Part shown: positions 45,801 to 48,800 of the stretch, in pieces
Layout of the letters: each line of letters opens with the position of its first letter
Numbering within the stretch: the stretch's first letter is position 1
Origin: Isurus oxyrinchus
Taxonomy: Eukaryota
Direction: 5' to 3'
DNA length: 64,000 nucleotides
Assembly (NCBI GenBank): GCA_026770705.1
Contig: JANJGN010000007.1
Location: forward strand, 97,402,001-97,466,000
Made by a program: the position numbers

Positions 45801-48800
45801 CTCCAGCCCAGTCAACATCCTCGTAAACCTCCTTTGTCTAGTGCAATCACATCCTTCCTATAATGCGGATCCCAGGACTGCACGCAATACTCTGGCTGTG
45901 GCCTTACAAGCGTTTTATACAGCTCAGCATGGCCTACCTGTTTTTACATTCTATGCCAACATTCTAGAAATATGTTGGATCAGTAATCTCCCTATTTCCT
46001 TCTTGAACGAGTCCCACTGCTCTGATGCTGATTTACCTAAAAGCAGCGTCTGCCAGTCCACTCTCGCCAAATCACATCTGATCTTATTGAATTCTGCCTT
46101 CCCCCAATGTAGAACTCCGATATCTGACCCATCCTTGTCCTTGACATGAAAGCCTTGAATCTATCGGAGTTATGATCACTATTTGGAAAATGCCCCCACA
46201 CCCACACACATCCCACACCGGCCCACATCGCAACTGTTGATTGAGAGCCTGCCGTATAAATTCAGTGGAGGTTCGATCGTTTCTACCAACCTGGCTGTCA
46301 TCAGTTCCAAACATCCAAGTCTGTTGCATGCCTGACAGATTATCTGCAGTGGTGTGTAATGTCCTAGGTAGCGAAGAATTCTTGAAAAAAATGCGATGTT
46401 GTCCTGTCATCCAGCAGTGTTTCCATTGTGTAGTCGCAGTTCTCTGAGACCAAACGATGCAGGGAAACCTGAATGGAGCCAGAGCACTTTCACCGCAACC
46501 GAACAATAGTATCAGTAAAAAAATTCTTCAGAGCTGCAGCAGTTCGGAAACTATCACGTGATGCGAAAATGTTCCATCTTCTCTTCAACAACGAAGATAT
46601 GTGGGCGGCTTTAACCCTCACGGCCTCTTCTCAGCTCTGACGTGAAAGTAAAGTCAGTGTATTGAAGTTGTAGATTCAGCCAACTTGTGAATCTTTAAAT
46701 CACAACACGTTCAATGTCAGGTTATCTTCATATCGTTCCATACGGCACCCCCCAGTGTTTGCCACGGACTTGAAGCAACAGCGATTGAGTTGTTTGAGTG
46801 CGCAAAATGCGCCAGCTCGATGTGCTGCGATACGTCTCAACACTGGGCATCATTTACACGGGTAAATATATTTACACATGTCTGATAAATAAGAAGAGAG
46901 ATGAGAACTGAGTAGATATCACTTAGGTAAAATGTTTATTGTACAGTTTCCCAGTTCCTTTTGTTCTATAATTTGTAATATTTCCTCTTTATTCGTGTTG
47001 CTAATCATTGTCTTTGCGCATAAACGCTATTTGTGCTTATTTCTGACAGTAGCTGATGGGGCCACCCTCTCAGCGACTCAGTTTCCCGTTCGTGCGATTT
47101 CAGTGAAAGGTGCAAATGTTTCTATGAATTGTTCGTTCGGGCTTTTCGATTCCAACGCATGGATGAATGTTTATTGGCGGAGAGGCAGTAAGAACAGGAC
47201 ACTGGATGTGACTGCAGACGAAAGGAAAGTAATGATACCGTTGAAGCAAGGATCATCCGAACTCCACCTGCTGAATGTGAGTTTCCAGGATGCAGGAGTC
47301 TATCATTGCAGCGTGAGAGACAGGGCAGGAAAGATTTCCAATGGGAATGGGACTGAGCTGATTGTACACGGTGAGTGAGAGGGAACGGGTAAAGAGTTAG
47401 GATAAAATTATGAAGGTATACCTTACAAAATAGTTAACAGAAGAGCAGCAAGGCATTTGTCTTTCTTTGGAACTGTTATTGCTTATCGCAATTGGCAGCG
47501 ATCCCTTTCCGTTCACCCGGAGCTGCAACATTCATCGATCTGCGGATATCATAACTACTGATCTCAGCCAATCATTGTTGCTTAATGCTCTATCATTTAG
47601 TTAACTGTATTTTATTTAATTTAGTTAATTTCCTGAGTATGAAAATCTCTGGATTGGCTGGAATTTATTGATTATTCCTATTTCTCGTTGAGAAAATGGT
47701 AGTGTCTATTTTTCTTGAATCACTCTTGCGACGTGGTGAAGGTCCTAGCACCGTGCTATCACGGAGGGGTTCCAGGATGTTGATCCAATGAGGACCACCC
47801 TCTTAGCTGAGACATATCTCCCGTGTTCAAAATTCCTCAGGCAGTGGAAACAGCCGCTCCTTTTCTACCCTGTCAAGTCCCCATCAGAACCTTGTATGTT
47901 TCAACGTGATCACGTCTCATTCTCCTGACCTCTGGAAAACATAAACCCAATTTGCTCATTCTGTCATCATAAGGCAATCCTCTCTATCCGTAGACCAATC
48001 TACTGAACCTTCCCTCCATTGCTTCTAATTCAATAATAGGATGTATTAAACATGGAGATCAAGCAAAAGATAGAATGACGGTGTTGGGTCGCTAAAGCCC
48101 GGTGCACGCGTAGCAAAAGTTATTTATTCTTGTCTTCCAATCCCAGTACAATAAAGGTCAACATGCCATGTTTCTTCCTAATTGCCTATTGCGCCTGCAT
48201 GACAATGTTCTATGTTCCTTGTACGAGTACCCAAGTCCCTCTAAACACCATCATTGACAGGATTCATGTTAACAACATATTCTGCTTTACCGTTGTTACG
48301 AACGAAATTCATGCCTCACACTTGCCCACATTTTACTCAATCTGCGAACGTGTTGCTCGCTCACTTAACTATCTGTCTCTCTTTGCAGCCTCTTTGTGTC
48401 CTCATCACAACCTATATTCCCACGTAGCTTTGTGCTGAAGGAAGCTTAGATACATTCCGTCTCTTTGGCGAAGTCAATAACATAGATTCTAAAAAGCCGT
48501 GCCTCCAGAGCTGTTTCTCATGGCATTCCACTTGTCACAGCCTGCGAACTCGAACAGAGCATATATATCCCTCCTCGCTGCTGTCTCTTCACCAACCGAC
48601 TATTCATGCTGATATATTACCCCCAACTCCGCATACTTGGCCATATGCATTAACCTTTTGTATGGCACCTTATCGAACGACTTTTGGAAATCCAATTACA
48701 CAACGTCGACTTTTTCATTTTATTTAACTTACTAGTTACATTCTCAAACAAAAAAATAATAAAACATGCAATAAATGTGTCAAACACGAGTACCGTTTCT

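What the first reader, a model, noticed from the sequence alone, without database searches (positions are those of the whole stretch)
47050..47370. Germline-joined V-J exon with unusually short inter-cysteine distance (CDR2/C''-poor, VNAR-like)
Seen: the two canonical Cys are only 59 residues apart. An 11-residue CDR3-like loop (SVRDRAGKISN) runs straight into GNGTELIV in the same exon, with N rather than F/W before the GxG. Established: conventional Ig/TCR V domains space these Cys about 65-75 apart, while shark IgNAR V is about 60 because it lacks most of C'/C''. A GNGT G-strand also occurs in NKp30 and CTLA-4. Inference: a compact single-domain V that probably does not pair like VH/VL.
Basis: partly seen in the sequence, partly recalled or inferred. 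Interest (0 to 1): 0.7.

Follow-up and report, generated by a model that had tools for sequence, protein, structure and literature searches.

The report
Compact V domain of shark receptor
The exon is real and encodes an unusually short antibody-like V domain at the tip of a shark inhibitory cell-surface receptor, from a gene family found so far only in sharks, rays and chimaeras and apparently never described in print.

Summary
Window 47050-47370 (+) is one exon with good splice sites. It encodes a 106-residue Ig domain with Cys27 and Cys86 59 residues apart, an 11-residue loop, then N-G-N-G-T-E-L-I-V.

It is not a stand-alone V. It is exon 2 of a seven-exon gene: split leader, V(J), C1-set, transmembrane, and three tail exons carrying ITIM and ITSM motifs.

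Relatives at 56-65% identity are shark proteins with automatic names such as SIRP-alpha-like or tapasin-related-like. All 27 named hits of a family profile are cartilaginous fish. The short spacing holds across the family: 59 residues in 32 of 45 members, 54-60 in the rest.

AlphaFold models of this exon and of a database orthologue show strands A-A'-B-C-D-E-F-G. There is no C'' strand, and C' is reduced to isolated bridge residues. The best Foldseek match is NKp30, with many shark VNARs close behind. The highest TM-score is to NCAM domain 1, an I-set domain.

The domain is V-type by sequence and I-set-like by topology. 38 of 45 members carry an N-glycosylation sequon on the J-like bulge, which argues against VH/VL-type pairing. 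That point remains inference.

Most likely function: a SIRP-like inhibitory receptor. The copy upstream in the window is a pseudogene that has lost its V exon.

The parts
46807..46861 (+). Leader exon (split leader). The ATG is at 46807 and 18 codons plus one base follow. The donor GT is at 46862-63 and the leader intron is 188 bp.
   Evidence: Read. tblastn of shark homologues aligns their signal peptides here.
47050..47370 (+). V(J) exon, the finding itself. A 106-residue Ig domain with a C27-C86 spacing of 59 and phase 1 at both ends.
   Evidence: Pfam V-set 4.3e-10; homologues at 56-65% identity; AlphaFold pLDDT 88.8.
47184..47225 (+). C-to-D connection, residues 45-58. These 14 residues stand where a full V domain has C', CDR2 and C''.
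   Evidence: DSSP on the model shows a single bridge residue (50) between strand C (39-44) and strand D (59-64). The orthologue model shows the same. There are almost no indels here across the 45 relatives.
47340..47366 (+). J-like G strand, N97-G-N-G-T-E-L-I-V105. It has a GxG bulge, Asn in place of F/W, and the sequon N99-G-T.
   Evidence: G98 is kept in 44 of 45 members, G100 in 43 of 45, and a sequon sits at position 97 or 99 in 38 of 45.
51398..51679 (+). C1-set domain exon, 94 codons, phase 1 at both ends.
   Evidence: Pfam C1-set 3.5e-11; splice sites read; the best PDB matches are IgE, UrIg2, IgA, CD276, TAPBPR and MHC.
54123..54230 (+). Transmembrane exon. It has a Cys and a Gly-rich stretch at the outer end of the helix and no charged residue within the helix.
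   Evidence: ORF listing and splice sites. The Cys column holds Cys in 22 of 42 aligned relatives.
54704..54747 (+). Cytoplasmic exon 1.
56743..56853 (+). Cytoplasmic exon 2. It carries an ITIM (L-S-Y-T-A-V). 23 residues later it carries T-V-Y-A-Q, whose +3 residue (Ile) is the first codon of the next exon, making an ITSM.
   Evidence: The 23-residue Tyr-Tyr spacing is the commonest in the family tails.
56986..57057 (+). Cytoplasmic exon 3. It carries a second ITIM (L-M-Y-V-S-L) and the stop codon TGA at 57055-57.
57058..57108 (+). In-frame relic after the stop. It still reads as the family's fourth tyrosine motif (T-E-Y-T-E-I) and ends at the family's usual stop position.
   Evidence: The upstream copy has AGA where this gene has TGA.
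16207..25724 (+). Upstream paralogue, a pseudogene. It keeps a leader remnant, has no V exon, and has a damaged C1 exon (19322-19605), TM exon and tail exons.
   Evidence: Lesions: the stretch matching 46846-48532 is deleted; the C1 acceptor AG has become AA; the C1 exon has a 5-bp deletion and a 1-bp insertion, and its second Cys codon is now TAT; the TM exon and cytoplasmic exon 3 each have a 1-bp deletion.
30214..60733 (.). Tandem duplication unit 2, which holds the intact gene. It is about 78-83% identical to unit 1 at 1532-29216.
   Evidence: Self-BLAST of the window.

Best explanation
The exon encodes the membrane-distal domain of a type I transmembrane receptor. The domain order is split leader, germline-joined V(J), one C1-set domain, a transmembrane helix, and a tail with ITIM, ITSM and ITIM motifs.

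The V(J) domain keeps the V framework: Cys-Trp-Cys, an Arg58 and Asp80 pair, the D-x-G-x-Y-x-C motif, and a GxG bulge followed by T-x-L-x-V. It has lost CDR2 and the C'' strand, and C' is reduced to a short extended stretch. The result has the nine-strand A-A'-B-C-(C')-D-E-F-G topology also seen in I-set domains, shark VNAR and CD79b.

Inferred steps:
- The ligand is bound at the membrane-distal tip (BC, C-D and FG loops), as SIRP-alpha binds CD47.
- The V does not form a VH/VL-type pair, because the J bulge carries an N-glycan site and the C' edge is missing.
- On tyrosine phosphorylation, the ITIM and ITSM, 23 residues apart, recruit a tandem-SH2 phosphatase (SHP-1 or SHP-2) and damp the cell's activation.

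The gene belongs to a tandemly duplicated, cartilaginous-fish multigene family. The family also has short-tailed members with an Arg in the membrane helix, so it looks like a paired inhibitory and activating receptor family of the SIRP kind.
For: Shown:
- Exon structure and phases.
- V-set and C1-set domains.
- Relatives with the same architecture in sharks, rays and a chimaera: 7 of 158, 21 of 1438 and 27 of 5394 candidates passed, and every named hit is chondrichthyan.
- Cys-Cys spacing of 59 in 32 of 45 members, 54 in 8, 60 in 2, 58 in 2 and 57 in 1.
- Two independent AlphaFold models without C''. The window exon gave pLDDT 88.8. In the full-length orthologue P0007, the V and C1 blocks gave 87-98.
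- Foldseek: NKp30 first (E 1.7e-9, TM 0.76), then many VNARs, CD79b (TM 0.81 on the target) and NCAM D1 (TM 0.82 and 0.87).
- In HMMER alignments of the family profile to a mouse Fab-like chain, VH needs 4+12 extra residues and VL 10. All of them fall between strand C and strand E.
- Sequon at the J bulge in 38 of 45 members.
- Variability is highest in A', the BC loop and strand D, and lowest in strands C, F and G.
- No charged residue in the window's membrane helix.
- Tyr-Tyr spacing of 23 accounts for 19 of the 45 consecutive spacings in 28 tails, the commonest value.
- Short-tailed relatives with Arg in the helix.
- The two-domain orthologue model matches antibody light chains in all 48 rows shown by Foldseek (ranks 1-49).
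- The family profile hits Ig chains, UrIg2 (3e-32) and SIRP-alpha (1.7e-28) in the PDB.

Inferred or recalled: tip binding, SHP recruitment, and the likeness of the tail's motif order to SIRP-alpha.
Against: - There is no expression, protein or ligand evidence of any kind.
- The tail ends at a TGA 17 codons before the family's usual stop, which removes the fourth tyrosine motif. The neighbouring copy is a pseudogene. This copy could therefore be decaying.
- The V exon alone does not list SIRP among the 60 rows shown of 530 PDB sequence hits, and no SIRP appears in the 48 rows shown by Foldseek. The SIRP likeness rests on the C1 domain, the overall architecture, the tail, and automatic names.
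- C1 domains usually pair, half of the relatives have a Cys at the outer end of the helix, and strands C, F and G are the most conserved. All three are compatible with a dimer in which the V domains do touch.
- Glycosylation of the sequon is assumed, not shown.
- DSSP strand calls on a predicted model can miss a short C'.
Confidence: 0.7

Rival explanations
1. The receptor is a dimer, homodimeric or paired with a paralogue. It would be held by C1-C1 contacts and a juxtamembrane disulfide, and its two compact V domains would pair to form one binding site. That would make it a non-rearranging antigen-receptor-like molecule of the UrIg, CD79 or CD8 kind.
For: A C1-set domain follows the V, and such domains usually pair (established knowledge). 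Cys sits at the outer end of the helix in 22 of 42 aligned relatives, next to a Gly-rich stretch. Strands C, F and G are the least variable. The V-C1 junction aligns with light chains, and the orthologue model matches light chains. UrIg2, which is a homodimer according to the abstract of PMC12227049, is the third-best PDB hit of the family profile.
Against: An N-glycosylation sequon sits at or next to the position of the interface F/W in 38 of 45 members. The C' strand that carries half of a VH/VL interface is missing. The Cys is absent from about half of the relatives. SIRP-alpha, whose ectodomain is the fourth-best PDB hit of the family profile, carries C1 domains yet acts without V pairing (recalled).
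Confidence: 0.2
2. This copy is a recently disabled or decaying gene, so the odd V domain has no present function in this animal.
For: There is a premature TGA relative to orthologues and to the paralogue, and the lost motif is still readable downstream. The tandem neighbour is a clear pseudogene.
Against: All seven exons are open with consensus splice sites. The V domain keeps every invariant and near-invariant family residue. Its branch in the tree is short, 0.18 against a median of 0.25. Three tyrosine motifs remain. Some database relatives also lack the fourth motif, for example P0007.
Confidence: 0.1
3. The domain is an ordinary I-set adhesion-type domain. The J-like GxG-T-x-L-x-V ending would be convergent, so it says nothing about V or antigen-receptor evolution.
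For: I-set passes its Pfam cut-off (26.0 against 23.7). 10 of the 11 members of alignment A2, chosen because they lack the C1 domain, match I-set. Titin, DCC, contactin and NCAM head the whole-chain E-value list for the V-only profile. The best TM-score is to NCAM D1.
Against: Those top ranks come from summing many domains. The best single titin domain scores 25.8 bits, while single V domains score 42-46 bits (TCR alpha, V-lambda, VNAR, CD79b). V-set is the best Pfam model for this exon. The split leader, the single V(J) exon in phase 1, a C1-set partner and a light-chain-like junction form the antigen-receptor gene pattern (PMC12227049 sections 4 and 7).
Confidence: 0.07

Closest known systems
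SIRP family (SIRP-alpha, -beta, -gamma)
   Same: The V domain has a J-like G strand and is followed by C1-set domains. One membrane helix leads to a tail with several ITIM-type tyrosines. Short-tailed relatives have a basic residue in the helix. The PDB SIRP-alpha ectodomain matches the family profile at 1.7e-28 and SIRP-gamma at 2.8e-24. NCBI's pipeline names many members SIRP-alpha-like or SIRP-beta-1-like. From memory, the order and spacing of the four tail motifs resemble those of SIRP-alpha; this was not tested.
   Different: There is one C1 domain, not two. From memory, the V is about 7 residues shorter between the cysteines than SIRP D1. No SIRP appears in the rows shown for the V exon alone: 60 of 530 PDB sequence hits and 48 Foldseek rows. 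No bony-vertebrate member was found, so orthology is open.
NKp30 (NCR3)
   Same: It is the best structural match (3noi, E 1.7e-9, TM 0.76, 26% identity). It is a germline-joined VJ domain. From memory it has the same G-N-G-T bulge with Asn rather than F/W. It is listed among VJ-type IgSF genes in PMC11599192 (passage seen).
   Different: From memory, NKp30 has no C1 domain, is an activating receptor with a charged helix, and has a full-length V. The window gene has a C1 domain, an uncharged helix and ITIMs.
Shark IgNAR V domain (VNAR)
   Same: Both have a compact V without CDR2 or C''. Many VNAR structures are among the best Foldseek hits (4hgk TM 0.76 and 0.77; 5l8k, 8ht3, 7s83, 8ft9, 9bn7 and others). 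VNAR 4hgk matches the V-only profile at 5.6e-10. The host lineage is the same.
   Different: The window exon does not rearrange: it is one exon with no heptamer nearby. It is followed by a single C1 domain and an ITIM tail, not an Ig heavy chain. By sequence it is no closer to VNAR than to TCR V-alpha (5e-11) or V-lambda (4.5e-10).
UrIg and UrIg2 (non-rearranging elasmobranch VJ-C1 genes)
   Same: Both have a single VJ exon behind a split leader, followed by C1-type domains, in cartilaginous fish (PMC12227049, sections 4 and 7 read). UrIg2 (9dmx) is the third-best PDB hit of the family profile and the second-best hit of the C1 exon.
   Different: The paper describes UrIg as a VJ plus three C1 domains, secreted only. 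It describes nurse shark UrIg2 as a VJ plus nine C1 domains. The window gene has one C1 domain and a signalling tail. In the UrIg2 alignment, the V part before strand E barely matches.
CD79b (Ig-beta)
   Same: It has a compact VJ-type Ig domain. Matches: 3kho_B TM 0.81 on the target with rmsd 2.5; 7xq8_B at 1.2e-9 and 3kg5 at 4e-9 against the V-only profile. From memory, its cysteines are also only about 55 apart and its G strand reads G-T-E-L-R-V.
   Different: CD79b has no C1 domain. From memory it carries an ITAM, not ITIMs, and pairs with CD79a.

Membership tests
V-set Ig domain (Pfam PF07686 / IMGT V-DOMAIN) | Score above the curated Pfam cut-off, and better than the other Ig models | tested here: met
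   40.2 bits against a cut-off of 26. Next best: Ig_3 31.2, Ig_2 30.2, ig 26.2, I-set 26.0.
V-set Ig domain (Pfam PF07686 / IMGT V-DOMAIN) | Cys23, Trp41, Cys104, and the Arg/Asp and D-x-G-x-Y-x-C framework marks | tested here: met
   C27, W42 and C86 are invariant in 45 of 45 members. R58 is kept in 42 of 45, and D80, G82 and Y84 in 44 of 45 each. The mapping to IMGT numbers was done by hand from recalled anchors.
V-set Ig domain (Pfam PF07686 / IMGT V-DOMAIN) | C' and C'' strands (nine to ten strands, with CDR2 between C' and C'') | tested here: not met
   The models have no C'' strand and only isolated bridge residues for C'. The exon covers V-set profile positions 9-109 with 89 residues, 12 short. 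By hand count, about 18 of the 33 IMGT positions 42-74 are empty.
I-set Ig domain (Pfam PF07679) | Score above the curated cut-off | tested here: met
   26.0 bits against a cut-off of 23.7, weaker than V-set. 10 of the 11 A2 members (relatives that lack the C1 domain) match I-set; V-set matches 11 of 11.
I-set Ig domain (Pfam PF07679) | A-A'-B-C-C'-D-E-F-G topology without C'' | tested here: met
   DSSP strands at 8-11, 14-17, 23-29, 39-44, (50), 59-64, 68-73, 82-89, 95-97 and 101-105. The highest TM-score is to NCAM D1 (0.82 and 0.87, rmsd 2.0).
Germline-joined VJ-type IgSF genes (CD79, NITR, SIRP, CD8, NKp30, PRARP, UrIg) | V and a J-like G strand with a GxG bulge in one exon, with no recombination signal | tested here: met
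   One open exon through G98-x-G100-T-x-L-x-V. No CACAGTG between 43094 and 52316. The family list comes from a passage of PMC11599192.
Germline-joined VJ-type IgSF genes (CD79, NITR, SIRP, CD8, NKp30, PRARP, UrIg) | Full J consensus F/W-G-x-G-T-x-L/V-x-V | tested here: not met
   Asn stands in place of F/W here, and in 35 of 45 relatives. PMC11599192 notes that the full consensus is also generally absent in the CD28 family.
Germline-joined VJ-type IgSF genes (CD79, NITR, SIRP, CD8, NKp30, PRARP, UrIg) | Split leader with a short intron before the V exon | tested here: met
   Leader exon 46807-46861, 188-bp intron, phase 1.
IgNAR V (VNAR) | Assembled by V-D-J rearrangement and carried on an IgNAR heavy chain | tested here: not met
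   The exon is germline-joined, and the next exons encode one C1 domain, a membrane helix and an ITIM tail.
IgNAR V (VNAR) | Closer in sequence to VNAR than to other V domains | tested here: not met
   Against the V-only profile: TCR alpha 5e-11, V-lambda 4.5e-10, VNAR 5.6e-10, CD79b 1.2e-9.
SIRP family | V-C1-C1 ectodomain | tested here: not met
   Only one C1-set exon lies between the V exon and the membrane exon. The relatives also have one.
SIRP family | Tail with paired ITIM-type tyrosines, and short-tailed relatives with a basic residue in the helix | tested here: met
   The window has an ITIM, an ITSM and an ITIM. The 23-residue spacing is the commonest in 28 tails. Relatives with Arg in the helix are listed. 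A direct comparison with a SIRP-alpha tail was not possible, because no reference sequence was on hand.
SIRP family | Orthology (shared synteny or phylogeny with tetrapod SIRP) and CD47 binding | not testable with these tools
   No annotated vertebrate genomes or SIRP reference sequences were available. All 27 profile hits were chondrichthyan.
NKp30 / NCR3 | A single VJ domain directly on a stalk and a charged membrane helix, with no C domain | tested here: not met
   A C1 exon is present and the helix has no charged residue.
UrIg / UrIg2 | A VJ followed by three or more C1-type domains | tested here: not met
   There is one C1 exon. The definition is taken from PMC12227049, sections 4 and 7.

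The most novel reading that the evidence does not exclude
The family is a surviving, non-rearranging cell-surface relative of the V lineage from which sharks built IgNAR V. It would be a germline VJ that had already lost CDR2 and C'' and was already joined to a C1 domain. On this reading the compact single-domain V format predates rearrangement in that lineage, and the family sits beside UrIg and UrIg2 as a third relic of the pre-RAG antigen-receptor stock. My evidence does not exclude this. The fold matches VNAR, the gene has the antigen-receptor exon pattern, and the family spans chimaeras, sharks and rays. But sequence shows no special affinity to VNAR, so convergence by loss of the same strands is more likely.
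Probability: 0.07. Interest if true: 0.85.

Novelty: new variant of a known kind. Interest (0 to 1): 0.5.

Why it matters
Single-exon VJ domains joined to C1 domains are sought as relics of the gene that the RAG transposon split to create antibodies and T cell receptors (PMC12227049, introduction). This family adds a membrane-bound, ITIM-signalling VJ-C1 form that is present in chimaeras, sharks and rays. Public databases give it only contradictory automatic names.

Its V domain shows that the CDR2-less, C''-less format known from shark VNAR, a prized single-domain antibody scaffold, also exists in a germline-encoded receptor of the same animals. That makes two questions testable: whether this compact format arose once or several times, and whether such a V can bind ligand on its own.

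It may also mark an early form of the SIRP-type paired inhibitory and activating receptor system.

Tried and rejected
**Complex prediction.** I submitted two copies of the V exon to complex prediction. The job was accepted and collected. The result was 'no answer' (score 0.01 against a mark of 0.32), the controls were not run, and my alignment was not used. This is no evidence for or against pairing.

**Cluster look-up.** The listing of cluster members was meant to supply names and taxa for unnamed relatives. The origin of the unnamed representatives (P0011, P0030, P0054 and others) is therefore unknown.

**Protein Atlas.** It returned only generic V-set and I-set clusters. The best was 'putative antigen receptor (fragment)' at 0.95.

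**Literature.** Seven searches found no paper that names or describes this V-C1-ITIM family. Three limits apply:
- PMC6761025 and PMC10530332 are not held.
- Subscription papers were not searchable. One I recall, on the shark NCR3 family, may bear on this.

**Rejected identifications:**
- CD79b: a C1 exon follows, and the tail has ITIMs, not an ITAM.
- A germline-joined Ig light chain: a membrane helix and an ITIM tail follow.
- Tapasin-related protein, CD276, B7-H6 and MHC class II beta: these are automatic names only, and none of those proteins has a J-like V with this tail.

**Other V exons.** A pattern scan of all stop-to-stop ORFs of 50 residues or more found only this one.

**Pfam coverage.** I scanned 61 of the 71 ORFs of 90 residues or more. 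The 10 left out were the V exon's own ORF, ORFs overlapping it or the C1 exon, and ORFs in repeats at 41.8-45 kb. Only the C1-set domain and two sub-threshold reverse-transcriptase fragments appeared.

**Joining of exons.** Each exon was handled alone: the V exon, and the C1 exon. The full-length fold used a database orthologue (P0007).

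Full report
**What is at the coordinates**

Window 47050-47370 on the + strand is an exon. It lies between an acceptor AG (47048-49) and a donor GT (47371-72). Only the frame from 47052 is open. It gives a 106-residue domain, stored as P0001. Cys27 and Cys86 are 59 residues apart. Eleven residues separate Cys86 from the first Gly of a G-N-G bulge. Asn stands where antigen receptors have Phe or Trp, and T-E-L-I-V-H runs to the exon end.

Pfam calls the domain V-set (40.2 bits, cut-off 26). I-set also passes its cut-off, at 26.0 bits against 23.7. 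The window contains no N. Its relatives show it to be shark DNA, and I do not take it for human.

**The gene around it**

I handled each exon on its own and did not join the exons into a spliced protein for any search or fold.

tblastn of six shark homologues against the window, ORF listings and the splice sites give seven exons:
- Leader, 46807-46861, separated from the V exon by a 188-bp intron.
- V(J), 47050-47370.
- C1-set domain, 51398-51679 (Pfam 3.5e-11).
- Membrane helix, 54123-54230, with no charged residue.
- Three tail exons: 54704-54747, 56743-56853 and 56986-57057.

The leader, V, C1 and TM exons all end in phase 1.

The tail has an ITIM (L-x-Y-x-x-V). An ITSM (T-x-Y-x-x-I) follows 23 residues later and spans the exon junction. 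A second ITIM (L-x-Y-x-x-L) comes after that. A TGA at 57055-57 ends the tail 17 codons before the family's usual stop. The lost fourth motif is still readable in frame behind it.

No recombination heptamer lies between 43094 and 52316, so the gene does not rearrange.

**Family**

The V exon finds shark proteins at 56-65% identity (7 of 158 candidates). They come from Heterodontus francisci, Scyliorhinus canicula and Hemiscyllium ocellatum and have the same leader-V-C1-TM-tail build.

A search from a Callorhinchus milii member gave 21 of 1438 candidates. A search with a 21-sequence family profile gave 27 of 5394. Every hit that carries a name is from a chimaera, shark or ray.

The names are all automatic and contradict one another. 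They include SIRP-alpha-like, SIRP-beta-1-like, tapasin-related-like, CD276 homologue, NCR3 ligand-like, lambda light chain-like and class II beta-like.

That search depends on shared five-residue words, so absence from bony vertebrates is only weakly shown. The exhaustive search with the V exon gave 432 hits at E up to 0.001, but that library carries no names. The tool that would have named them was switched off.

In a tree of 45 V domains, the window's V is sister to the Hemiscyllium protein (support 98/88). Both sit inside a 10-member subclade (support 100/99) whose six rows of known origin are all elasmobranch.

**Is the short spacing a peculiarity of this copy?**

It is not. In an alignment of 45 family V domains, the Cys-Cys distance is 59 in 32 members, 54 in 8, 60 in 2, 58 in 2 and 57 in 1. 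The distance from the second Cys to the bulge Gly is 12 in 43 of 45.

When the family profile is aligned to a mouse Fab-like chain, the VH needs insertions of 4 and 12 residues and the VL needs one of 10. All of these fall between strand C and strand E.

I also counted by hand using IMGT anchors recalled from memory: C23, W41, D98, C104 and position 118. On that count, 22 of the 81 steps from C23 to C104 are empty, and about 18 of the empty positions lie in 42-74. That amounts to CDR2 plus C''.

**Structure**

AlphaFold on the exon with the 45-sequence alignment gave mean pLDDT 88.8 and pTM 0.81. The strands are A 8-11, A' 14-17, B 23-29, C 39-44, one bridge residue at 50, D 59-64, E 68-73, F 82-89, and G 95-97 plus 101-105.

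A separate model of the full-length Hemiscyllium orthologue gave the same picture in its V domain, with isolated bridges only between C and D. It also showed a seven-strand C1 domain and a membrane helix.

So there is no C'' strand and C' is vestigial.

Foldseek against the PDB put NKp30 first (3noi, E 1.7e-9, TM 0.76). A long run of shark VNARs followed, along with V-lambda, TCR V-alpha and CD79b (TM 0.81 on the target). NCAM domain 1, an I-set domain, had the highest TM-scores (0.82 and 0.87, rmsd 2.0).

The two-domain orthologue model matched antibody light chains in all 48 rows shown (ranks 1-49), at high rmsd.

**V-set or I-set?**

By sequence the domain is V-type:
- V-set is its best Pfam model.
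- A V-only family profile scores single V domains at 42-46 bits (TCR alpha 5e-11, V-lambda 4.5e-10, VNAR 5.6e-10, CD79b 1.2e-9).
- The best single titin I-set domain scores 25.8 bits. Titin, DCC and contactin head the list only because many domains add up.

By strand topology it is what Harpaz and Chothia called I-set (recalled), as VNAR itself has been described (recalled). The split leader, the phase-1 V(J) exon, the C1-set partner and the light-chain-like J-C junction tie it to the antigen-receptor gene pattern (PMC12227049, sections 4 and 7 read).

**Pairing**

Two observations support this.
- The C' edge that supplies half of such an interface is missing.
- 38 of 45 relatives have an N-glycosylation sequon on the J bulge. 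In 28 it sits at the position of the interface Phe/Trp, and in 10, including this gene, two residues later.

Three observations point the other way.
- The domain is followed by a C1 domain, a type that usually pairs.
- 22 of 42 aligned relatives have a Cys at the outer end of the helix.
- Strands C, F and G are the least variable parts of the domain.

Whether the sequon is used, and whether the receptor is a dimer, remain open.

**How it most likely works**

Shown: the architecture, the motifs, and their conservation.

Inferred:
- It is an inhibitory receptor that binds its ligand through the variable BC, C-D and FG tip. Mean column entropy is 2.58 for the BC loop, 2.57 for strand D and 2.78 for A', against 1.29-1.49 for strands G, F and C.
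- After tyrosine phosphorylation it recruits SHP-1 or SHP-2. The 23-residue Tyr-Tyr spacing accounts for 19 of the 45 consecutive spacings in 28 family tails, the commonest value. It is close to the spacing I recall for PD-1 and SIRP-alpha.

Short-tailed relatives with an Arg in the helix suggest activating partners. That would make this a paired-receptor family of the SIRP type. The likeness of the four-motif tail to SIRP-alpha is from memory and was not tested.

**Surroundings**

The window is a tandem duplication. Unit 1 (1532-29216) and unit 2 (30214-60733) are 78-83% identical. Unit 1 carries a dead copy of the gene, with these lesions:
- The 1.7 kb that holds the end of the leader exon and the whole V exon is deleted.
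- The C1 acceptor is AA, and the C1 exon has a 5-bp deletion and a 1-bp insertion.
- The second C1 Cys codon is TAT.
- The TM exon and the last tail exon each have a 1-bp deletion.

**Known relatives and novelty**

UrIg and UrIg2 are the published non-rearranging VJ-C1 genes of elasmobranchs. They have three and nine C1 domains and no ITIM tail (PMC12227049, sections 4 and 7). UrIg2 is nevertheless among the best PDB matches of the family profile and of the C1 exon.

PMC11599192 lists CD79, NITR, SIRP, CD8, NKp30 and PRARP as VJ-type genes (passage). PMC10751288 mentions VJ-C1 genes only in general terms (passages).

Seven full-text searches found no paper on this family. Two key papers were not held, and supplements and subscription journals could not be seen.

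I rate it a new variant of a known kind. It is a SIRP-like, non-rearranging VJ-C1 receptor whose V has the CDR2-less, C''-less format of VNAR and CD79b. That precedent, together with the existing automatic gene models, keeps the interest moderate.

Noticed in passing
window 1532-29216 and 30214-60733: Nearly the whole window is two tandem copies of a unit of about 30 kb, 78-83% identical. Each carries one copy of the receptor gene. The window may end inside a third unit.
   Followed up: partly
window 16207-25724: The upstream gene copy is a pseudogene. Its V exon was removed by a 1.7-kb deletion, its C1 splice acceptor is lost, it has frameshifts in the C1, TM and last tail exons, and the second C1 cysteine codon is changed.
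   Followed up: yes
window 57055-57108: The intact copy stops at a TGA where the paralogue has AGA and orthologues have Arg. The family's fourth tyrosine motif and its usual stop are still readable in frame just behind. This may be a recent truncation or a variant.
   Followed up: partly
window 43414-43810 and 44118-44514: A pair of inverted repeats of about 400 bp, 94% identical and about 300 bp apart, lies some 2.3 kb upstream of the leader exon. Unit 1 has only one arm (13579-13981). It may be a foldback or transposon insertion.
   Followed up: no
window 2797-3153 (+) and 38225-38647 (-): Two ORFs give weak reverse-transcriptase matches (RVT_1, 19.7 and 23.5 bits, below the cut-off of 29.6). 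They are probably decayed retroelement fragments.
   Followed up: no
database relatives P0026, P0120, P0170, P0171, P0181, P0182, P0183: Some family members have short tails and an Arg in or at the membrane helix, the usual mark of activating partners that signal through an adaptor. The family therefore looks like paired inhibitory and activating receptors.
   Followed up: partly
database relatives P0005, P0012, P0020, P0129 (no C1) and P0002, P0006 (no TM): Predicted isoforms in other sharks and rays skip the C1 exon (V placed directly on the membrane helix) or skip the membrane exon. If real, the compact V is also displayed without its C1 partner.
   Followed up: no
database hit P0049 (311 aa): An unnamed protein has two tandem V domains, each ending in a G-T-G-N-G-T-R-L-E-V-type J strand that, as I recall it, looks like NKp30. 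It matched the window's V at 3.4e-13 and 32% identity. It may be a member of the shark NCR3 family.
   Followed up: no
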